Of a stretch of 64,000 nt of DNA, positions 27,072 to 37,919 are shown in pieces; position 1 is the first letter of the stretch, and each line of letters starts with the position of its first letter. This DNA comes from Escherichia phage phT4A, in sequence record NC_055712.1, one strand, 5' to 3'. The notes under the pieces were generated by a model. The model saw only the letters and a program-made list of their open reading frames with translations. It searched no databases and was not told the DNA's origin. Position numbers and translations under genes: made by a program.

Positions 27072-27100
27072 TTGACCTTACCCTGCTGTTCGAGTATATT
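27072..27100 (+). promoter_or_regulatory. sigma70-like early promoter (TTGACC-N17-TATATT)
   Basis: Near-consensus -35/-10 pair with 17-nt spacer about 50 nt upstream of the 27151 ORF. Confidence 0.5.
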
Positions 27101-27462: not shown

Positions 27463-27469
27463 TTAACAA

Positions 27470-27492
27470 GGGGCTACGGCCCCTTTTCTTTT
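27470..27492 (+). terminator. rho-independent terminator (ggggc-tacg-gcccc + T tract)
   Basis: GC stem-loop plus ttttctttt. Confidence 0.65.
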
Positions 27493-27501
27493 AGGTGAAA
27501 T

Positions 27502-28071
27502 ATGAACTTAAATCACGAATGTTTAAAAGATTTGAGCGATGGTAACGAGATTGGTAACGTTATTTTTCTTGATATCGATGGCGTTCTAAATAATATGCGG
27601 TGCATGAAATTTGGTGAACATATGGACATCGAATGCGCACGACACTTACGCCGGATAGTGAATCACGCTAATTGTGATATCGTCATTTCCTCTACGTGGA
27701 GAATCGGCAACAGTACCCATAATCTACGTGAAATATTTTATCCGTGGGGATTGTATCGGATCATTGGTAAAACTTGCACTAACTTCCCTCATAGCACTGG
27801 AATGCGTGGTGATGAAATCAAGGCATGGATCGATACTTTCGGATGTAAAAACTATCTCATTCTTGATGATGACACCGATATGCTTTCTTCACAAAAAGAT
27901 CATTTTATTAACACTGATGGGTTTGTTGGGTTGACCGAAGAACAATCCACTTATGCGATCCGTAACATTTTCGGGGTTACTACTCCGTTTTGTCCTGAAT
28001 GCAATGGGTATGGACGTGTTAACGGCTACGACAAATGCGGAACGTGTAACGGTAAAATACTCCGGCTATAA
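27502..28071 (+). CDS. HAD-superfamily phosphatase-like protein with C-terminal zinc ribbon
   Basis: 189 aa; HAD motif I VIFLDIDGVLNN near the N-terminus, ILDDD later; CPECNGYG...CGTCNG at the C-terminus. Confidence 0.6.
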   Translation: MNLNHECLKDLSDGNEIGNVIFLDIDGVLNNMRCMKFGEHMDIECARHLRRIVNHANCDIVISSTWRIGNSTHNLREIFYPWGLYRIIGKTCTNFPHSTGMRGDEIKAWIDTFGCKNYLILDDDTDMLSSQKDHFINTDGFVGLTEEQSTYAIRNIFGVTTPFCPECNGYGRVNGYDKCGTCNGKILRL

Positions 28072-28074
28072 ATA
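28067..28074 (+). promoter_or_regulatory. late promoter box TATAAATA upstream of the hoc-like gene
   Basis: Exact TATAAATA 25 nt upstream of the ATG at 28100. Confidence 0.55.
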
Positions 28075-28099
28075 CCAATAAACATAAGAGGTTAAATTT

Positions 28100-28633
28100 A
28101 TGGCAATTCCTTCTGTAACAATTAGCGCCAACAAAAACGAACTTTTGATTGGTGAAACTTTGACCTTAGAGGTTAAAAATACTGAACTAGATCCGGGTGA
28201 TGTGTTTCTGGCCTACCGTTGGCAAAAAGATGGTGTAGATATTCCAGGCGCAACCGCCGATACTTACACAACTACGGTTGACGGTACAACTGCTGGTGAT
28301 TATACCCTGATCTTAAAACACGGTGCTGATGAAGAATCAGCAACAGAAACCACGTCAGATACAATCACCGTGACCACTTATTCTGATGATCTCGTTTCTA
28401 AATGGACGGTTCACCCGATTCCGTGGCGTGATACCAGCTTTACCCCGATCGGTTATTGGGTACTTGATGAAATTCTGTATCAGAAAGCACAGGGTAAAGA
28501 TTGGAAAACTGATTATGCTGATTACAAGTATAGTGAGGAAGTACAAACGATCCTGAAAGCGTTCATGGAAAACGGTGAATGTGAGATCCAGGATTCACGA
28601 AACGGCTATATTCATAAAATGAGTGAAATCTAA
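28100..28633 (+). CDS. hoc: mini-Hoc: one Ig-like domain + Hoc-type capsid-binding C-terminal domain
   Basis: 177 aa; N-terminal Ig-like segment (YRWQKDG..GATADTYTTTV..GDYTL); C-terminus HPIPWR..S....GYWV(L/M)DEI...GKDWKTD...(Q/I)(D/E)SRNGYIHK resembles the T4 Hoc capsid-binding domain. Confidence 0.7.
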   Translation: MAIPSVTISANKNELLIGETLTLEVKNTELDPGDVFLAYRWQKDGVDIPGATADTYTTTVDGTTAGDYTLILKHGADEESATETTSDTITVTTYSDDLVSKWTVHPIPWRDTSFTPIGYWVLDEILYQKAQGKDWKTDYADYKYSEEVQTILKAFMENGECEIQDSRNGYIHKMSEI

Positions 28634-28643
28634 GAGGCTTTAA

Positions 28644-28919
28644 ATGGCAACTGAAAAATGGACTACGGTTCATCCTATTCCGTGGAGAAATACCAGTTTT
28701 ACATATCTTCCATACTGGCTATACGATATTATCGTTGATGCTTTTGAGAAAGGCGACGACTGGCGCGATTATGCGGAAGAAAAATATAAATTAGAGTTTG
28801 ATACTCTGAAAGAGGCGTTTGAAGATTATGGTGATATTCATGTAATCGAATCTCGTAATGGTAAACTGGTTAGTCTGTTGTCATTGACTCCTGCTCCTGA
28901 ACCAGATCCTGACCAATAA
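28644..28919 (+). CDS. Hoc C-terminal (capsid-binding) domain paralog lacking an Ig domain
   Basis: 91 aa; KWTTVHPIPWRNTSFTYLPYW..DDWRDYAEEKY...IESRNGK is paralogous to the C-terminal half of the preceding gene. Confidence 0.6.
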   Translation: MATEKWTTVHPIPWRNTSFTYLPYWLYDIIVDAFEKGDDWRDYAEEKYKLEFDTLKEAFEDYGDIHVIESRNGKLVSLLSLTPAPEPDPDQ

Positions 28920-28932
28920 AATAAGGCAAACA

Positions 28933-29451
28933 ATGAATACACTTCTTTTTGATTTCGACGACACTTTAGCAGAATTTTCTCAGACTTTTTATGATAAGTT
29001 CGGTGTACGTCCGGAAGGAACGCCAAAAGAACGATATGACGAAATGGCGGCTTCTTTGGTGCGTACTGATTTTTATAAAAACCTTCCCCGTATTCAGGCT
29101 GGGATTGACCTCCTTCAATGGAGTTTCCAACGCCGAATCGGTGATCCTGCTACTTTGCTGCTTCGCGCGGAAGCGGTCAGCCCTCTTTGGGTTATGAAAG
29201 AAAAACTGAACTATACAGATAAGATTTGCGCTGAACTGGGGATCCCTCGTCTCGATTTTAGTCGCATTGACTATCCGGAACAGTTCGCAGAACATGCCTA
29301 TCGTGGTGTTCTGATTTCCCGCAACCAGAAACATCTTGAAATCTGGAACAATTCTCATCTAGCTAATAAAGTTCCTGGTATTTTCCTTGCGGAAACCCTG
29401 GAAGAAAATATTCAGCTAGTCACGGAAGCGCTTGCAAAGGCTAATCAATAA
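28933..29451 (+). CDS. HAD-superfamily hydrolase-like protein
   Basis: 172 aa; N-terminal LLFDFDDTLAEF (DxDx(T/V) motif I). Confidence 0.5.
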   Translation: MNTLLFDFDDTLAEFSQTFYDKFGVRPEGTPKERYDEMAASLVRTDFYKNLPRIQAGIDLLQWSFQRRIGDPATLLLRAEAVSPLWVMKEKLNYTDKICAELGIPRLDFSRIDYPEQFAEHAYRGVLISRNQKHLEIWNNSHLANKVPGIFLAETLEENIQLVTEALAKANQ

Positions 29452-29458
29452 CAAAAAA

Positions 29459-29485
29459 GGGAACCGCAATGGTTCCCTTTCTTTT
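29459..29485. terminator. bidirectional terminator between convergent genes (gggaacc-gcaat-ggttccc + T tract)
   Basis: 7-bp GC stem, A tract upstream, T tract downstream. Confidence 0.6.
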
Positions 29486-29948
29486 ACAATCTTTTTAATT
29501 CATCAAGCGCTGTTTTCTTATCACCAACAAAGAGGATTGCTTTACCTCCTGCTTTTCTGAAAGGCAACACCGCTTTTGCCCGATCGTCAAACAGAATTCC
29601 TTTACCAGCGAATGCTGCTTTTTCATGGCTACTTTTAACGTAGTGGAATTCTGGAACGTAACCCAATACTTTTTGTAATGCTTTACGTTTTTGTTCGGCA
29701 ACACCGTCAGAATTGAATTTACCGACACTGGTTAGTATTGCTACATCACCAAGTGTTCTTAAATGATGGAATAATTCAAATCCTTCTTTGATTGGTTCCA
29801 GATTTTCGTAGAAATCAGTTTTGGCAATTTTTGCTTTGCACTTTTTCAACTCATCTTCTGTCATCATAGAGGGTTCGCCATACATTGGCACAAATGAACC
29901 TTCCCAGTCGAACAATACACCATCCATATCAAAGAAAAACTTATTCAT
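29484..29948 (-). CDS. HAD-family 5'(3')-deoxyribonucleotidase-like phosphatase
   Basis: 154 aa; FFFDMDGVLFDW at the N-terminus, characteristic of NT5C-type HAD nucleotidases. Confidence 0.6.
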   Translation of the reverse strand: MNKFFFDMDGVLFDWEGSFVPMYGEPSMMTEDELKKCKAKIAKTDFYENLEPIKEGFELFHHLRTLGDVAILTSVGKFNSDGVAEQKRKALQKVLGYVPEFHYVKSSHEKAAFAGKGILFDDRAKAVLPFRKAGGKAILFVGDKKTALDELKRL

Positions 29949-29997
29949 ATCAATTCCTCAGTTTGTGTATGCATACTATAATGTTTAATCATTAATG

Positions 29998-30837
29998 TCA
30001 ACCCCAAGTGTCAGTTTTCGGTGCGTATGCTGCAACTTTAGCCACAATTTCCTTATCCAGTTCAGCTACAGATTTCTGAGGCTTACCACGGGCTTTAACT
30101 TTGATGTAGTTTGACTTAACAACAAACATCCCTTTGTTACTTGATTTCTTGATCTCGCTATCAACACCAACTTTGTTAAAGCTGATCCAAATGTCGCCGT
30201 CCATATACTGTTTAAGAGAATCACCCATGTTCAGGATCTTCGCCATAGTAAGGGCCGCGCCTTCGTGGGTATCCATGAGAATTTCTTTAGGAACTACACG
30301 ATCGCGTTTCTGGTTCTGCTGCATAGCAATATGCACATCGTTCATAACCCATACGATATGTACGTTTTCTTTTTTGTATCCCAGCGTTTCGACATCACGT
30401 GCGATGCTTGCCAGCTTGCTCATGCCTTTTAACGTTACGTCAAAGATGAGGTTAGGTTTACGATCTTCTGGTGCTGCCATAATACCGGAATAAACACGGT
30501 TTTGGTTTTTGTTGGAAATGTTGAAAACGTCGGCGATCACATGATGGAGGGTAGATACGTTTTCTGGGTTTTTGAGGTTCATTGTTTTGACATCATGACC
30601 CGTTTGTTTCTTGATCTCTGCTGCGAGTTTATCGCTACCCATTACAAGTTTTTTCAGGGCGTCAACGTCCAGGGTAATACCTTCGATGCCTAGCAGTTTT
30701 TCCAGTGTGAATCCTTTACCGGAACCAGCACCGCCAGCCAGAATAACAACCTGACCGAACTTAGGATAAGCACGGCCCCCGAAGGTGATCAGCGCTTCGG
30801 TTAAGGTGCTTTCTGTGAATTGTTTAAATGACTTCAT
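29998..30837 (-). CDS. glycine-rich-loop nucleotide-binding protein, NMP-kinase-like (function unknown)
   Basis: 279 aa; VVILAGGAGSGKGF resembles the adenylate/NMP-kinase P-loop (GxxGxGKG), later hhhhD (LIFDV) candidate Walker B. Confidence 0.5.
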   Translation of the reverse strand: MKSFKQFTESTLTEALITFGGRAYPKFGQVVILAGGAGSGKGFTLEKLLGIEGITLDVDALKKLVMGSDKLAAEIKKQTGHDVKTMNLKNPENVSTLHHVIADVFNISNKNQNRVYSGIMAAPEDRKPNLIFDVTLKGMSKLASIARDVETLGYKKENVHIVWVMNDVHIAMQQNQKRDRVVPKEILMDTHEGAALTMAKILNMGDSLKQYMDGDIWISFNKVGVDSEIKKSSNKGMFVVKSNYIKVKARGKPQKSVAELDKEIVAKVAAYAPKTDTWG

Positions 30838-31859: not shown

Positions 31860-32177
31860 ATGAAAACGATACATTGCAGAAATGAAAACGTTGTTTACTA
31901 TCACGGTTCGTGTACTGCTGCTGGTATTGAAAGCATGTTATTGCCTCCCTGTGATTCTGATACTCTGTCTGAAAAAGGCAGGAAGAAAAATTTAGACCGT
32001 GTTTTCTTTACCGCTGATATCGGGTTAGCTCGTATATACGCTGGAAGGGCCGCGCGTTCTATAGGTGGGGAACCTGTTCTGTACAGGGTTGTGTGTCCGG
32101 TTGATGTTGTATGCATGAACGAAGACAAAGGCGCGAGCGTTTACCATGCAGCATGGGCGTTTTGTGAGGAATTATGA
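31860..32177 (+). CDS. small ART-fold-like protein resembling the NAD-binding lobe of Tpt1/KptA RNA 2'-phosphotransferase (tentative)
   Basis: 105 aa; VYYHGS ... VFFTAD ... RIYAGRAAR...PVLYRV parallels KptA LYHGT ... VHLSAD ... ARKVGARHGSPVILTV. Confidence 0.35.
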   Translation: MKTIHCRNENVVYYHGSCTAAGIESMLLPPCDSDTLSEKGRKKNLDRVFFTADIGLARIYAGRAARSIGGEPVLYRVVCPVDVVCMNEDKGASVYHAAWAFCEEL

Positions 32178-33558: not shown

Positions 33559-34578
33559 ATGTTTAAGAAATATTCTTCTCTGACTAACCATTATGAAGGT
33601 AAGTTCATCAATGGTGTAATTATGAACGGGCTTACTGGCGGTGTGTGGGTTGCACGTGAAAAGATCCACGGTGCTAACTTTAGTTTTATCACCGATGACG
33701 GTATTACCGTTACCCCCGCAAAGCGTACTGATGTTGTTAAGCCAGCCGAAGATTTTTATGGCTGTTCAGCAGTAGTTGCAAAGTATTCCCCAGGGATCCG
33801 TAAGATGTGGGAAACCCTCAAAAAGACCGGAACTTATGATGATTTGGTTATTCAAGTCTACGGTGAATTTGCGGGGCGCGGTGTACAGAAAGATGTTGAT
33901 TACGGCGAAAAAGATTTCTATGTATTCGATATCCGTGTAAATGGTGAATTCCTTCCGGATAACCTGTGCTCGCTGATCTCTCGATCTCATGGCCTGAAAA
34001 TGGCCCCGCTGTTGGGATATGGTACTTTTGAAGAGATCAAAGAACTGCCGATCACGTTTGAATCTGTTGTGAATAAAGCAAATAGCGGCATTGGTAGCGA
34101 TAATACAGTATATGGTGAATTCGTATATCCTATCATGGAAGTTGAAGAGGGCAACATTGCAGAAGGTTTTGTAATGAAACCTGTTTCACCTGCTTTTATG
34201 CCAAACGGTGAACGCGTTGCAATCAAATGCAAAACAACCAAATTCACTGAGAAGAAAGCGAAGAAAGCAACCCGCTTTAATGCTCCGGTTTCATTGTCAG
34301 AAAAAGACAAAAACCAACTCGATGAGTTTGTTTGTTACCTTACAGAGAACCGTGTGAAAAACGTTCTTTCGAAACTGGATCTGGCTTCGATCACTGCGAA
34401 AGATTTTGGTCGCATTATGGGCTTAACTGTTCAGGATGCTATCGAAGAAATCAGCCGTAATCACGGGCCTTTCCTCGAACAGTTCGAAGACCCAGCAATG
34501 GCTAAGAAGCTGTTTGTAACCGAAGCCCAAAACATGATTCGCCCTGTATGGGGCAAAATCCTGAACCATGAATTTTAA
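33559..34578 (+). CDS. rnlB: RNA ligase 2 (RnlB)
   Basis: 339 aa; MFKKYSSL.NHY..KFI, GGxWVAREKIHG(A/T)NFS (active-site Lys motif), VFGEFAG.G(V/I)QK.VDYG(E/D)KDFYVFDI, VAIKCK, MGLTVQD as in T4 Rnl2. Confidence 0.93.
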   Translation: MFKKYSSLTNHYEGKFINGVIMNGLTGGVWVAREKIHGANFSFITDDGITVTPAKRTDVVKPAEDFYGCSAVVAKYSPGIRKMWETLKKTGTYDDLVIQVYGEFAGRGVQKDVDYGEKDFYVFDIRVNGEFLPDNLCSLISRSHGLKMAPLLGYGTFEEIKELPITFESVVNKANSGIGSDNTVYGEFVYPIMEVEEGNIAEGFVMKPVSPAFMPNGERVAIKCKTTKFTEKKAKKATRFNAPVSLSEKDKNQLDEFVCYLTENRVKNVLSKLDLASITAKDFGRIMGLTVQDAIEEISRNHGPFLEQFEDPAMAKKLFVTEAQNMIRPVWGKILNHEF

Positions 34579-35149
34579 TCAGATTCTGGTTGATGCAAAA
34601 GCGGCTACCCTGATCGGTAGCCGTAAACCTCCTGAACGTATCGCAAACATTGCTGTTAAAATCGGACGTGCTTTGAACGAACGCGGGATCAGGGCTTATT
34701 CTGGCGGCGCTCCTGGTATGGATAGTCACTTTCTGTTTGACTATAGTCCGGATAACAGATGTATAATCCTTCCTGATAACGGGTTTAACGGCCTTTTCTC
34801 AAACGGAAAGGATATCATCGACTTTCGAGATTTAAACACACAGAAAGCTGCTGACGAAGCCAGAAAGGTAGCAGGTAACTTCGATACACAGAATGAATAC
34901 GTTCAAAGAAGGTATGCGCGAAACACGATTCAAGTTCTTCGTGAAAATCTTGACAATCCAACTGATTTTGTTTTATTTTGGGCGGAAGAACGTGAAGGAT
35001 GTGTTAAAGGTGGAACCGCGATCGCTGTAAGATTGGCTAGGTTGTACAGGGTTCCATGTTTCAATCTCTTCAAAGAAAGTGTATTGAACGATGTGTGTGA
35101 TACGTTAGGGATCAATATCAAACCCCCAACGTTGGATTTTTTATGGTAA
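34568..35149 (+). CDS. SLOG/DprA-LOG-like Rossmann-fold protein (putative nucleotide-binding)
   Basis: 193 aa; IRAYSGGAPGMDSHF matches the SGGxxGxD signature of the DprA/Smf-LOG (SLOG) fold. Confidence 0.45.
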   Translation: MNFNQILVDAKAATLIGSRKPPERIANIAVKIGRALNERGIRAYSGGAPGMDSHFLFDYSPDNRCIILPDNGFNGLFSNGKDIIDFRDLNTQKAADEARKVAGNFDTQNEYVQRRYARNTIQVLRENLDNPTDFVLFWAEEREGCVKGGTAIAVRLARLYRVPCFNLFKESVLNDVCDTLGINIKPPTLDFLW

Positions 35150-36485: not shown

Positions 36486-37919
36486 ATGAACAACAAAACT
36501 TTCGAAGAACTGAACAGCATCATCACTTCCGTAGATTCCTATAAGGTTTCTCACTGGTCGCAATATCCAACTGGCTCCGAAGAGGCGCTGTTTTATATTG
36601 AATCTCGTGGTGGTAAATTTGATCAAGTAGTTACGGCTGGCTGTAACCGCCTTGCGCAAATCCTATCACGTCCGGTGACTATGGAAAACGTAGATTTTGC
36701 TAATCGGTTGTACAAAATGCACTTTGGGCGCGAAATCTTCAACTACAAAGGTTGGAAAGAAATTGCAGAACTGGGTTACATCCCTCTTGAATTCAGAGCG
36801 ATTCCGGAAGGAACCCCAGTAGCGGTTAAAAATCCGGTTGCAACTTTCCATGCTGGGAAAAATGCGCTGTGGTTAGCAGGACACGTAGAAACCCTGGCGA
36901 TCAGGGGAGTATGGTTCCCTTCAACCGTAGCAACTCTATCCCGCGAATGTAAAAAAGTGTTGAAGAAATATCTCAAGAAAACCTCCGATCTCGAAGGTGA
37001 AGCATTTGATATGGTATTACGTACCCGTTTGCATGACTTCGGCGCACGTGGAACCTCTTCTGCTGAATCTGCTGGTATTGGTGGCCTTGCTCATCTGTAT
37101 AACTTCCTCGGTACTGATACCGTAGAAGCGCTGATTATGGCTATCTCTCTGTTTGAAGATTGTCAGAAAGCGTTTGATGATGGTGAAATGGCGGCTGGTA
37201 TTTCAATTCCTGCTCGCGAACATTCCACTACCGTTTCTTACGGCAAAGAAAACGAAGACCTTGCATACAAAAACAGTATTGAGATCTTCGGTGAAGGGAT
37301 GTATGCATGTGTGTATGATTCCTGGGATTTTAAAGCGGCGGTTCGCCGTATCGCAGAATATAAAGATTCTATTCTTTCTAAGGGCGGTACTCTGGTAGTT
37401 CGTCCGGATTCTGGCGATATGGTAGACAATATCATGTACGCTCTTGAAGAACTGGGCCGTATCTTTGGCTATACAGTGAACTCAAAAGGGTATAAAGTAC
37501 TACACCCAGCAGTAAGGATCATTCAAGGCGATGAAATTCATGGCCCTGAAACAATCAATCGGGTGTTGAACTGGATGGAGTCTAACCGTTGGGCGTCTGA
37601 AAACATCGCGTTTGGTATGGGCGGCGGATTGCTTCAAGAAGTTACCCGCGACACTCAAAAATATGCGATGAAAATGTGCGCAATCAAAATTAACGGTGTG
37701 TGGACTGGTGTGTATAAATGTCCAAAAGGCGCTGAATGGAAAAAGAGTAAAAAAGGGTTGTTAATGACTATCACTGATGGTGTTAACTTTAAAACCATTG
37801 ATACTCTGGAACAGAAAGTGCCGGAAGGCTGGAAAGATGCTATGATCACATACTATGTCAACGGAAAGATTACTGCCCGTGACACTTTAGAGGAAATTAG
37901 GAACCGTGCCGGGATTTAG
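36486..37919 (+). CDS. nadV: nicotinamide phosphoribosyltransferase family protein (NadV/NAMPT-like)
   Basis: 477 aa; N-terminal DSYKVSHW signature, HDFGARG, GxGGGLLQ-type C-terminal block typical of the NAMPT family. Confidence 0.88.
   Translation: MNNKTFEELNSIITSVDSYKVSHWSQYPTGSEEALFYIESRGGKFDQVVTAGCNRLAQILSRPVTMENVDFANRLYKMHFGREIFNYKGWKEIAELGYIPLEFRAIPEGTPVAVKNPVATFHAGKNALWLAGHVETLAIRGVWFPSTVATLSRECKKVLKKYLKKTSDLEGEAFDMVLRTRLHDFGARGTSSAESAGIGGLAHLYNFLGTDTVEALIMAISLFEDCQKAFDDGEMAAGISIPAREHSTTVSYGKENEDLAYKNSIEIFGEGMYACVYDSWDFKAAVRRIAEYKDSILSKGGTLVVRPDSGDMVDNIMYALEELGRIFGYTVNSKGYKVLHPAVRIIQGDEIHGPETINRVLNWMESNRWASENIAFGMGGGLLQEVTRDTQKYAMKMCAIKINGVWTGVYKCPKGAEWKKSKKGLLMTITDGVNFKTIDTLEQKVPEGWKDAMITYYVNGKITARDTLEEIRNRAGI

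What the first reader, a model, noticed from the sequence alone, without database searches (positions are those of the whole stretch)
27502..30837. Cluster of three HAD-family phosphatase-like genes and a convergent kinase-like gene
Three ORFs begin with HAD motif I (FLDIDGVL, FDFDDTL, FDMDGVL), and the NT5C-like one lies immediately downstream of a 279-aa protein with an NMP-kinase-like glycine loop (GGAGSGKG). Together with RnlB and the Tpt1-like ORF this could be a split RNA end-healing/sealing toolkit or a dNMP-pool module; the redundancy is unusual.
Basis: partly seen in the sequence, partly recalled or inferred. Interest (0 to 1): 0.5.

Follow-up and report, generated by a model that had tools for sequence, protein, structure and literature searches.

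The report
Phage kinase–nucleotidase pair plus stray HADs
In this T4-like Klebsiella phage the three HAD-type genes are not one toolkit: one active nucleotidase is a conserved, sometimes fused, partner of an uncharacterised sugar-hydroxyl kinase, most likely for nucleotide salvage; the second is a catalytically dead paralogue, and the third is unlinked.

Summary
In this Slopekvirus (KP27-like) window, four ORFs sit at the stated coordinates with the stated motifs, and all have strong profile support.

They are three different things:
- **Conserved module (29484-30837, minus strand).** It pairs a P-loop kinase with an NT5C-family HAD nucleotidase. The kinase's nearest structures are AvrRxo1, zeta toxins and polynucleotide kinases, not NMP kinases. 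In distant T4-like phages the two genes are adjacent in either order. In seven protein clusters they are fused, again in both orders. The same kinase is also fused to HD, Nudix and nucleotidyltransferase-like domains, and carries inteins in its P-loop.
- **Degenerate NT5C paralogue (28933-29451).** It has lost motifs II-IV, and motif I in sister genera, yet is under strong purifying selection. It is a pseudo-phosphatase.
- **Capless HAD_SAK_2 phosphatase with a zinc ribbon (27502-28071).** It lies beyond the late hoc genes and is not linked to the others outside close relatives.

The phage already encodes canonical PseT and RnlA, so a "split RNA end-healing kit" is not supported. A small-molecule nucleotide kinase/phosphatase module fits best. 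The substrate is unknown and the family is uncharacterised.

The parts
29998..30837 (-). 279-aa P-loop kinase (KP27_252 family, PHROG 5268). Conserved residues: Walker A GGAGSGKG with K41, D57-V-D59...K62 after strand 2, D133 in the Walker-B-like LIFDVT, and R178/R180. A C-terminal beta subdomain spans about residues 215-279.
29484..29948 (-). NT5C_B: 154-aa capped HAD phosphatase of the 5'(3')-deoxyribonucleotidase family with all four catalytic motifs (D7/D9, T73, K110, D121-D122). Conserved partner of the kinase.
   Evidence: Pfam NT5C above cut-off and PHROG 2643. Motifs conserved in the alignments. AF2 model pLDDT 97; the top 16 PDB matches are all 5'(3')-deoxyribonucleotidases. Adjacent or fused to the kinase in 21 of 80 loci.
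29973..30001 (-). Sigma-70-like promoter (TTGACA-17-TAGTAT) overlapping the kinase stop codon, upstream of NT5C_B.
   Evidence: Consensus scan, 10 of 12 positions. Annotated as a promoter in KP27. This is a consensus match only.
29453..29483 (.). Hairpin terminator, 13-bp stem, between the convergent NT5C_A and NT5C_B genes.
   Evidence: Terminator scan, minus strand. Annotated on both strands in KP27.
28933..29451 (+). NT5C_A: 172-aa degenerate paralogue of NT5C_B. Motif I (D7, D9) is kept here, motif II T is replaced by L, the motif III K is lost, and motif IV DD is replaced by SR. Probable pseudo-phosphatase.
   Evidence: PHROG 2643 at 2.5e-50 with no Pfam hit. 32% identical to NT5C_B over 75 aa, E=9e-10. 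Alignments. Karamvirus-type orthologues read E-F-N-D at motif I. dN/dS 0.02-0.07.
28644..28919 (+). 91-aa stand-alone paralogue of the Hoc C-terminal domain. Not part of the enzyme module; it separates the HAD genes.
   Evidence: PHROG 14282 'Hoc-like head decoration', 2.5e-62.
28100..28633 (+). Hoc-like head decoration gene (late gene). It separates HAD_SAK_2 from the NT5C genes.
   Evidence: PHROG 1149 at 1.5e-45. T4-type late promoter TATAAATA at 28067-28074.
28067..28074 (+). T4-type late promoter box TATAAATA in front of hoc. NT5C_A lies downstream with no predicted terminator before 29453, so late co-transcription is inferred.
   Evidence: Pattern search, 8 matches in the window. Terminator scan.
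27502..28071 (+). 189-aa capless HAD phosphatase of family HAD_SAK_2, with a C-terminal four-cysteine zinc ribbon (CPEC...CGTC). Motifs: D24-x-D26, S63-S64-T65, D122-D123-D124.
   Evidence: Pfam PF18143, E=5.4e-29, covering profile positions 1-138 of 139. DnaJ CXXCXGXG-like stretch at 154-185, below cut-off. PHROG 1818 at 5.5e-53. dN/dS 0.03-0.16.

Best explanation
The core of the finding is a two-enzyme module, the 279-aa kinase plus NT5C_B. Both act on a small-molecule nucleotide or nucleoside rather than on RNA ends. The kinase uses ATP to phosphorylate a sugar hydroxyl. An invariant Asp (D59, or D57) just after strand 2 serves as the general base, as in polynucleotide kinase, zeta toxins and AvrRxo1. 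NT5C_B is a capped Mg-dependent HAD nucleotidase that removes a monophosphate.

The two are repeatedly fused into one polypeptide, in both orders. The same kinase is also fused to an unrelated HD phosphohydrolase. They therefore most likely act in sequence on different positions of one metabolite, not antagonistically.

The chemistry I consider most likely is PNKP-like but at the mononucleotide level: 5'-phosphorylation followed by 3'-dephosphorylation. This would convert 3'-(d)NMPs from nucleic-acid breakdown into 5'-(d)NMPs for phage DNA synthesis. A nucleoside-kinase/nucleotidase pool-editing pair is the nearest variant.

NT5C_A is a catalytically dead but selected paralogue. It may be a nucleotide-binding or regulatory partner, for example by heterodimerising with NT5C_B, and is probably expressed late with hoc. 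HAD_SAK_2 is a separate, independently inherited phosphatase that probably acts on a macromolecular substrate.

- **Shown:** folds, motifs, adjacency, fusions, selection.
- **Inferred:** substrate class, order of reactions, roles of NT5C_A and HAD_SAK_2.
For: **Coupling of kinase and NT5C_B**
- An NT5C_B-like gene lies 30-82 bp downstream of the kinase on the same strand, or directly upstream, in lineages where kinase identity falls to 52-63% and HAD identity to 30-40%. This holds in 21 of 80 loci. Whenever the HAD is within 8 kb it is adjacent or fused.
- Seven protein clusters carry both domains. Six are HAD-kinase and one is kinase-HAD, at 32-67% mutual identity, from JGI, ENA and Logan data.

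**Substrate class**
- The kinase is also fused to HD (P0250), Nudix (P0310) and a cytidylyltransferase-like protein (P0227). The free form of that last protein neighbours the kinase in 7 loci. All are nucleotide-metabolite enzymes.
- NT5C_B carries a helical cap, and its best structural matches are human, mouse and staphylococcal 5'(3')-deoxyribonucleotidases.
- hhalign against PseT shows the cap has no counterpart in the PNKP phosphatase.

**Kinase type**
- hhalign pairs D59/K62 with the PseT catalytic Asp34 and Arg37 (T4 D35/R38), but at only 19% probability.

**Context**
- The fused genes lie between regA and a gp1-like dNMP kinase within gp45-gp44-gp62...gp43-uvsX-gp41. The dNMP kinase is 29 bp away in L028.
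- tk lies 1.3 kb away in Aeromonas phage 65-like genomes. A staphylococcal-nuclease-like gene lies about 0.8-1.2 kb upstream in 20 marine loci.

**Other evidence**
- All four window genes are under strong purifying selection.
- Canonical PseT and RnlA exist elsewhere in the genome.
Against: - No substrate has been tested and there is no literature on the family.
- Only 11 of 70 distant loci have the HAD next to the kinase. In Aeromonas phages both genes exist but lie far apart.
- One fused gene (P0139) sits directly beside a canonical PNKP. This also fits a nucleic-acid-end role.
- Kinase matches to solved structures are remote: 11-16% identity, Foldseek TM 0.4-0.46.
- The 20 SNase-linked loci are probably one lineage and lack an adjacent HAD.
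- No SNase homologue was found in the 114 kb of this phage type that I could search.
- Fusion does not strictly exclude antagonistic enzymes; PFK-2/FBPase-2 is a counter-example.
Confidence: 0.5

Rival explanations
1. Polynucleotide end-healing. The kinase phosphorylates 5'-OH RNA or DNA ends and NT5C_B (and/or HAD_SAK_2) removes 3'-phosphates. This would be a second PNKP that feeds RnlB or RnlA to repair tRNAs or mRNAs cut by host anticodon nucleases.
For: - HAD-kinase is the domain order of mammalian PNKP.
- One fused gene lies next to a canonical PNKP.
- HAD_SAK_2 is named for RNA-repair proteins.
- RnlB is 2.7 kb from the kinase in this phage.
Against: - The phage already has PseT and RnlA.
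- NT5C_B is a capped, small-molecule-type HAD. Its fold matches are nucleotidases, not PNKP phosphatases.
- RnlB linkage is limited to close relatives.
- Other fusion partners (Nudix, HD, nucleotidyltransferase-like) point to small molecules.
- HAD_SAK_2 homologues in other phages are not near ligases.
Confidence: 0.15
2. NAD-type cofactor metabolism or counter-defence. The kinase phosphorylates a ribose hydroxyl of NAD, nicotinamide riboside, ADP-ribose or an immune signalling nucleotide, as AvrRxo1 does with NAD or the NadR kinase does with NR. It would work with the phage's NAMPT/NMNAT-Nudix salvage genes, and the HAD would trim a phosphate.
For: - Fusions to Nudix and to a nucleotidyltransferase-like domain recall NadR and NadM-Nudix.
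- NAMPT lies 5.6 kb away here and 4.4 kb away in L042.
- This phage group has a NatV-like NMNAT/Nudix.
- The HAD_SAK_2 homologue in Vibrio phage VH7D lies directly upstream of NatV.
Against: - The nucleotidyltransferase-like partner is not detectably NatV (BLAST E=0.011 over the HxGH region only).
- Fused HAD-kinase genes sit in replication and dNMP-kinase contexts, not NAD contexts.
- There are no PADLOC hits, and no anti-defence label I could trace to a source in the papers searched.
- NAMPT linkage is confined to relatives plus one locus.
Confidence: 0.15
3. Zeta-toxin-like host-takeover enzyme. The kinase poisons the host by phosphorylating UDP-GlcNAc or NAD, and the HAD acts as an antidote or limiter.
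For: Pfam Zeta_toxin hit above cut-off. Zeta and PezT are among the top structural matches.
Against: - No epsilon or PezA-type antitoxin gene is present.
- Fusing a toxin to its antidote activity in one polypeptide, in both orders, would be self-defeating.
- P-loop inteins and very low dN/dS suggest a housekeeping-type enzyme for the phage.
Confidence: 0.05
4. No functional unit at all. These are unrelated accessory genes that accumulated in the plastic hoc-rnlB region of T4-like genomes.
For: - This region varies between T4-like phages.
- HAD_SAK_2, NT5C_A, RnlB and NAMPT are co-located with the kinase only in the roughly 10 close relatives.
- The genes lie on two strands and are interrupted by late hoc genes.
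Against: This reading holds for HAD_SAK_2 but not for the kinase and NT5C_B. Adjacency in two orders and seven fused clusters are very unlikely without functional coupling.
Confidence: 0.1

Closest known systems
T4 polynucleotide kinase-phosphatase (Pnkp/PseT) and mammalian PNKP
   Same: A P-loop kinase of the same structural clade combined with a DxDxT HAD phosphatase. In relatives the two are on one polypeptide, in HAD-kinase order as in mammalian PNKP. The Asp...[R/K] motif after strand 2 aligns with PseT D34/R37.
   Different: - No significant sequence similarity (hhalign 19% and 38% probability).
- The HAD is the capped NT5C type, not the capless PNKP type.
- Walker A reads GKG rather than GK[ST].
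- There is an extra C-terminal beta subdomain.
- The phage also has a true PseT.
- The substrate is probably a small molecule.
Zeta/PezT toxins and AvrRxo1 (Pfam Zeta_toxin, PF06414)
   Same: Best structural neighbours and a Pfam hit above cut-off. These are kinases that phosphorylate a sugar hydroxyl of a nucleotide-containing metabolite (UDP-GlcNAc, NAD).
   Different: - 11-16% identity.
- No antitoxin or chaperone gene.
- Phage-encoded, paired or fused with phosphohydrolases.
- Highly conserved across T4-like phages, with P-loop inteins.
5'(3')-deoxyribonucleotidases cdN/mdN (Pfam NT5C, PF06941)
   Same: NT5C_B has DMDGVL as motif I, the DFY.NL cap motif, all four HAD motifs, and a matching fold (TM 0.63-0.69, 21-22% identity).
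   Different: Shorter (154 aa against about 195 aa, with a smaller cap), and genetically coupled to a kinase. NT5C_A keeps the scaffold but lacks motifs II-IV.
NadR (NMNAT plus ribosylnicotinamide kinase) and CoA synthase (PPAT plus dephospho-CoA kinase)
   Same: Some relatives fuse this kinase to a nucleotidyltransferase-like domain (P0227) or to Nudix (P0310). This is the same logic as these bifunctional nucleotide-cofactor enzymes.
   Different: The kinase family differs. The nucleotidyltransferase-like partner is not detectably NMNAT. No such fusion occurs in this window.
HAD_SAK_2 (PF18143), the HAD domain of 'Swiss Army Knife' RNA-repair proteins
   Same: ORF 27502-28071 matches the whole profile at 101.8 bits and has all the HAD motifs.
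   Different: It is stand-alone with a C-terminal zinc ribbon. In phages it is not linked to ligase or kinase repair genes.

Membership tests
HAD superfamily (all three ORFs) | Motif I DxD, motif II S/T, motif III K/R, motif IV acidic pair. | tested here: met
   Met for ORF 27502-28071 (D24/D26, SST63-65, DDD122-124), apart from motif III, which I could not assign with confidence there. Met for NT5C_B (D7/D9, T73, K110, D121/D122), read from sequence and alignments. Not met for NT5C_A; see its own row.
HAD_SAK_2 (PF18143) | Profile score above the Pfam gathering threshold. | tested here: met
   101.8 bits against 27.5, profile positions 1-138 of 139.
HAD_SAK_2 (PF18143) | Association with RNA-repair partners (ligase, kinase, nuclease domains). 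| tested here: not met
   Homologues in phages S13, VH7D and RHph_I34 neighbour hoc/inh, NMNAT-Nudix, and thymidylate synthase/DHFR. Linkage to RnlB is seen only in close relatives.
NT5C 5'(3')-deoxyribonucleotidase (PF06941): NT5C_B | Profile score above the gathering threshold, matching fold, and catalytic motifs. | tested here: met
   26.0 bits against 24.8. The top 16 PDB matches are all cdN, mdN or a bacterial dNT-like protein. Motifs are conserved.
NT5C 5'(3')-deoxyribonucleotidase: NT5C_B | Hydrolysis of 5' or 3' (deoxy)nucleoside monophosphates. | not testable with these tools
   Needs an enzyme assay.
NT5C 5'(3')-deoxyribonucleotidase: NT5C_A | Catalytic motifs II-IV and a Pfam score above threshold. 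| tested here: not met
   No Pfam hit. Motif II T is replaced by L, the motif III K is absent, and motif IV DD is replaced by SR. Sister-genus orthologues also read E-x-N at motif I. Homology itself is clear: PHROG 2643 at 2.5e-50, BLASTP to NT5C_B at 9e-10.
Zeta toxin family (PF06414): 279-aa kinase | Profile score above threshold, Walker A, and a catalytic Asp after strand 2. | tested here: met
Zeta toxin family | Cognate antitoxin (epsilon or PezA type) encoded alongside, and toxicity through UNAG or NAD phosphorylation. | tested here: not met
   The neighbours are NT5C_B and unrelated phage ORFs, with no antitoxin-like hit. Toxicity cannot be tested here.
Polynucleotide kinase-phosphatase (T4 Pnkp type) | AAA_33-type PNK kinase plus HAD_PNKP phosphatase domains. 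| tested here: not met
Tpt1/KptA RNA 2'-phosphotransferase (the neighbouring 'Tpt1-like ORF') | Match to PF01885 or to solved Tpt1 structures. | tested here: not met
   The 105-aa ORF 31860-32177 and the ORFs flanking rnlB give no Pfam, PHROG-function or PDB sequence hit. By eye, only a YHGS...RVFFTAD resemblance to the Tpt1 C-lobe is visible.

The most novel reading that the evidence does not exclude
The kinase/NT5C pair, and its fused forms, would be a previously unrecognised bifunctional enzyme of T4-like phages. It would perform PNKP-type chemistry on free nucleotides, as a 5'-kinase plus 3'-phosphatase that converts 3'-(d)NMPs into polymerisable 5'-(d)NMPs. This would be a new nucleotide-salvage route. 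A dead NT5C paralogue would have been retained as a regulatory subunit. Alternatively, the pair could be a new NAD or signal-nucleotide-modifying counter-defence enzyme.
Probability: 0.2. Interest if true: 0.7.

Novelty: new variant of a known kind. Interest (0 to 1): 0.5.

Why it matters
The kinase family is large. There are 1611 clusters at 90% identity, and about 231 representatives at 50% identity with E<=1e-30. It is highly conserved across Straboviridae-like phages of enterobacteria, Aeromonas, Vibrio and marine hosts. It was important enough to acquire P-loop inteins. Every database still labels it 'hypothetical' or 'zeta toxin domain'.

Showing that it works with an NT5C nucleotidase gives a concrete, testable biochemical hypothesis for a widespread phage auxiliary function. 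It would also add a second, structurally distinct solution to the kinase-plus-phosphatase design known from PNKP. The selected pseudo-phosphatase NT5C_A is a tidy example of a phage pseudoenzyme.

For annotation, the result corrects three misleading labels: 'three phosphatases', 'zeta toxin' and 'anti-RM protein dam3'.

Tried and rejected
- **PDB sequence searches.** Single-sequence searches for all four proteins, and a profile search for the kinase, found nothing significant. Fold searches were needed instead.
- **NCBIfam and PADLOC.** Nothing useful for the four genes.
- **Source of the GenBank label 'anti-RM protein dam3' on Roth phages.** I searched four ways and found nothing. The label sits on the kinase in Roth23 but on NT5C_B in Roth22, while the true Dam is annotated separately. 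I therefore treat the label as mis-transferred.
- **Literature on phage zeta/AvrRxo1-like kinases and on HAD_SAK.** Nothing relevant was held.
- **Link to the 'unknown DNA modification' of KP27.** The paper offers no link to these genes.
- **Tenacibaculum phage PTm5 long ORF and several long homologues as informative fusions.** These turned out to be inteins in the P-loop.
- **The conserved 291-aa and 209-aa neighbours in marine loci.** No homology to window ORFs and no family hits.
- **SNase, dNMP-kinase or tk homologues in the window or in KP27 1-50 kb.** None found. KP27 50-111 kb was not searched.
- **Promoter for the kinase itself.** No clear sigma-70-like or TATAAATA late-promoter match in its 114-nt upstream region.

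Full report
**What the window is.** The region is 99.5% identical to Klebsiella phage KP27 and about 110 other Slopekvirus genomes (T4-like, Straboviridae). It lies in the variable zone between uvsW/inh/hoc and srd/rnlB. The four genes of the finding correspond to KP27_247, _250, _251 and _252. All are 'hypothetical' in the original record and partly '5'-3' deoxyribonucleotidase' in later annotations.

**Observation.** Each has significant profile support:
- ORF 27502-28071: HAD_SAK_2, E=5.4e-29.
- The 154-aa ORF: NT5C, E=9.7e-6, above the gathering score, and PHROG 2643 at 1.5e-57.
- The 172-aa ORF: PHROG 2643 at 2.5e-50.
- The 279-aa ORF: Zeta_toxin, E=2.8e-7, above the gathering score.

**Layout and transcription signals.**
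- A sigma-70-like promoter (27072-27100) and a hairpin (27468-27485) precede the HAD_SAK_2 gene.
- A T4-type late promoter box, TATAAATA, sits at 28067-28074, directly before the hoc-like gene.
- After hoc come a stand-alone paralogue of the Hoc C-terminal domain and then NT5C_A, with no predicted terminator until the hairpin at 29453-29483.
- On the other strand, the kinase (29998-30837) is followed after 49 nt by NT5C_B (29484-29948). A sigma-70-like promoter overlaps the kinase stop codon (KP27 features).

These are consensus matches only. They show that the 'cluster' spans at least three transcription units, interrupted by late structural genes.

**The kinase.**
- Thirty-one homologues down to 54% identity share invariant G35, G36, S39, G40, K41 (Walker A), D57, D59, K62, D133, R178, R180 and many other basic residues.
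- The AF2 model is confident (pLDDT 84.9, pTM 0.81).
- The P-loop wording GKG is adenylate-kinase-like. The invariant Asp directly after strand 2, followed three residues later by an invariant Lys, is the arrangement of the catalytic base and phosphate clamp of PNK. hhalign pairs D59/K62 with PseT D34/R37, at low probability.

I conclude that it is a hydroxyl kinase of the zeta/AvrRxo1/PNK clade. This is an inference from fold and motifs. No solved structure is related at the sequence level.

**NT5C_B.**
- All four HAD motifs are invariant across its family.
- The model has pLDDT 97.
- The best 16 PDB matches are all 5'(3')-deoxyribonucleotidases: S. epidermidis 3bwv, human mdN 1mh9, and human and mouse cdN.
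- Against PseT's phosphatase domain, hhalign finds only generic HAD similarity. The NT5C cap segment has no counterpart there.

It is a bona fide NT5C-type, capped, small-molecule phosphatase.

**NT5C_A.**
- It is a paralogue of NT5C_B: 32% identity over the first 75 residues, E=9e-10, and the same PHROG.
- It retains only motif I. Motif II Thr becomes Leu, the motif III Lys is absent, and motif IV Asp-Asp becomes Ser-Arg.
- In the sister lineage of RB43/Karamvirus-type phages, even motif I reads E-F-N-D.
- Yet dN/dS among those orthologues is 0.02-0.07, as low as for the kinase.

It is therefore a maintained pseudo-phosphatase, not a decaying gene. Its role is unknown. The options I can offer (inference) are nucleotide binding through the retained cap motif DFY.NL, or heterodimerisation with NT5C_B, since NT5C enzymes are dimers by established knowledge.

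**Is the kinase-NT5C_B pairing meaningful?** I fetched 80 viral contigs encoding kinase homologues.
- In all 10 close relatives, and in 11 of 70 distant loci (kinase 52-63% identical, HAD 30-40%), an NT5C_B-like gene is present. In those it is 30-82 bp downstream on the same strand, directly upstream, or in the same reading frame.
- Database searches with a fused protein recovered seven clusters carrying both domains. Six are HAD-kinase (P0121, P0122, P0139, P0308, P0337, P0354) and one is kinase-HAD (P0218). Mutual identity is 32-67%. P0122 was seen on nine contigs from independent projects.
- Named isolates show the same adjacency, for example Pectobacterium phage POP12 genes 045 and 046.

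Two gene orders plus fusions in both orders make strong Rosetta-stone evidence for functional coupling.

By contrast, NT5C_A, HAD_SAK_2, RnlB and NAMPT accompany the kinase only in the close relatives.

**What kind of substrate?** The same kinase is also fused to three other domains:
- an HD phosphohydrolase (P0250);
- a Nudix domain (P0310);
- a cytidylyltransferase-like protein (P0227). Its free homologue (L065 8377-10146) neighbours the kinase in seven loci.

All of these are enzymes of nucleotide-type metabolites.

The genomic contexts point the same way:
- The fused HAD-kinase genes lie inside the replication module, in the order gp45, gp44, gp62, regA, fusion, small ORF, gp1-like dNMP kinase, gp43, uvsX, gp41. 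In L028 the dNMP kinase follows after 29 bp.
- Aeromonas phage 65-type genomes have tk 1.3 kb away.
- Twenty marine loci have a staphylococcal-nuclease-like gene about 0.8-1.2 kb upstream.
- One fusion (P0139) is followed directly by a canonical PNKP.

Two structurally unrelated phosphohydrolases (HAD and HD) fused to one kinase argue for a sequential kinase-then-phosphatase pathway, not an antagonistic pair.

My preferred concrete mechanism is PNKP-type chemistry on mononucleotides: 3'-(d)NMP to (d)pNp to 5'-(d)NMP. I base this on three points, and it is inference only:
- NT5C enzymes hydrolyse both 5' and 3' monophosphates (established knowledge of cdN/mdN).
- T4 PNK accepts 3'-NMPs as minimal substrates (established knowledge).
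- The nucleases named above produce suitable substrates.

**RNA-repair reading.** The Slopekvirus genome already encodes canonical PseT (KP27_082), RnlA (KP27_078) and RnlB, so no split kit is needed.

HAD_SAK_2 is a full-length member of PF18143 with a C-terminal CxxC...CxxC ribbon. Its homologues occur in 329 phage records. Their contexts are:
- hoc/inh in Cronobacter phage S13;
- directly upstream of the NMNAT/Nudix gene in Vibrio phage VH7D;
- directly upstream of thymidylate synthase/DHFR in a Rhizobium phage.

None lies next to a ligase.

The 'Tpt1-like ORF' is most probably the 105-aa ORF 31860-32177. By eye it shows YHGS...RVFFTAD motifs resembling the Tpt1 C-terminal lobe. It has no Pfam, PHROG-function or PDB support and lacks an N-terminal lobe.

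**NAD reading.** The top structural match is an NAD 3'-kinase. The Nudix and nucleotidyltransferase-like fusions recall NadR and NadM-Nudix. The phage has NAMPT (window 36486-37919) and a NatV-like NMNAT/Nudix. However, the nucleotidyltransferase-like partner is not detectably NatV, and the best-resolved contexts are replication and dNMP genes. I keep this as a serious rival.

**Comparison with what is known.** The module works like a PNKP built from different parts, or like a zeta/AvrRxo1-type kinase domesticated for phage metabolism. It is a Pfam-level member of Zeta_toxin and NT5C. It fails the defining contextual features of toxin-antitoxin systems (no antitoxin) and of PNKP (no HAD_PNKP or AAA_33 match above threshold). 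I found no publication on the family. PHROG 5268 is 'unknown function'. The one functional label in GenBank, 'anti-RM protein dam3', moves between adjacent genes in sibling genomes and is probably an annotation slip.

**Verdict.**
The kinase/nucleotidase module and the nucleotide-pool reading hold. The triple-phosphatase redundancy and the RNA-repair kit do not.
- Novelty: a new variant of a known kind, namely a coupled kinase/phosphatase.
- Interest is moderate at 0.5. The family is widespread, conserved and uncharacterised, and now has a clear biochemical hypothesis, but its substrate remains inferred.

Noticed in passing
Proteins P0222, P0271, P0282, P0304, P0332 (also P0235, P0300); L007 3005-4846 (Tenacibaculum phage PTm5 ORF-187): Inteins, either mini or with a LAGLIDADG homing endonuclease, are inserted in the kinase P-loop exactly between GGAG and SGKG (GGAG|C...HN|SGKG). 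This occurs in at least five protein clusters and in one isolated phage.
   Followed up: partly
Window 28100-28633 and 28644-28919: The hoc-like gene is followed by a 91-aa stand-alone paralogue of the Hoc C-terminal region. Many sibling genomes (Roth, phi_KPN_S3) carry about 527 bp more in hoc, giving 353 aa against 177 aa. This points to variation in repeat-domain number.
   Followed up: partly
PQ657796.1 143149-143988 (Roth23) versus PQ657795.1 142729-143190 (Roth22): The GenBank product name 'anti-RM protein dam3' is attached to the kinase gene in one Roth phage and to the neighbouring NT5C_B gene in another. The real Dam methyltransferase is annotated separately. The label is probably mis-transferred, and I found no literature source for it.
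   Followed up: partly
Window 31860-32177: A 105-aa ORF (PHROG 2110, unknown function) has YHGS and RVFFTAD motifs reminiscent of the NAD-binding C-lobe of Tpt1/KptA, but no profile or PDB sequence match. A 70%-identical homologue lies 4.3 kb from the kinase in Aeromonas phage 65 (L025 13175-13513). That is much better conserved than the kinase itself (58%).
   Followed up: partly
Window 34568-35149: The DprA-like protein downstream of rnlB (PHROG 768) weakly matches the PADLOC models ShosA and PsyrA (E=3e-5 and 4e-4), both components of anti-phage defence systems. A decoy or antitoxin-mimic role would be worth checking.
   Followed up: no
Window 36486-37919, and elsewhere in the genome: The phage encodes NAMPT. 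Slopek- and Karamvirus genomes also encode a NatV-like bifunctional NMNAT/Nudix, labelled 'cytidyltransferase' by PHROG-based annotation. Together these form a complete two-step NAD salvage route.
   Followed up: partly
L006 (Cronobacter phage S13, 124408-133229): Here the kinase homologue is embedded between tRNA gene clusters. It lies about 1.5 kb upstream of a 467-aa DUF2828/DUF7788 protein annotated as RNA-binding.
   Followed up: no
L038-L088 subset (e.g. L082 6760-9745): About 20 marine phage loci share a fixed block: a staphylococcal-nuclease-like gene, a 209-aa unknown protein, the kinase, and a convergent unknown protein of about 291 aa. The two unknowns have no Pfam or PHROG hits.
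   Followed up: partly
L008 (Vibrio phage nt-1, 3956-5401 and 7739-8239): KVP40-like vibriophages carry a distant (about 25% identity) kinase domain at the N-terminus of a 481-aa protein (PHROG 14490). An NT5C-like deoxyribonucleotidase lies 2.3 kb downstream. The C-terminal 270 aa have no family match.
   Followed up: no
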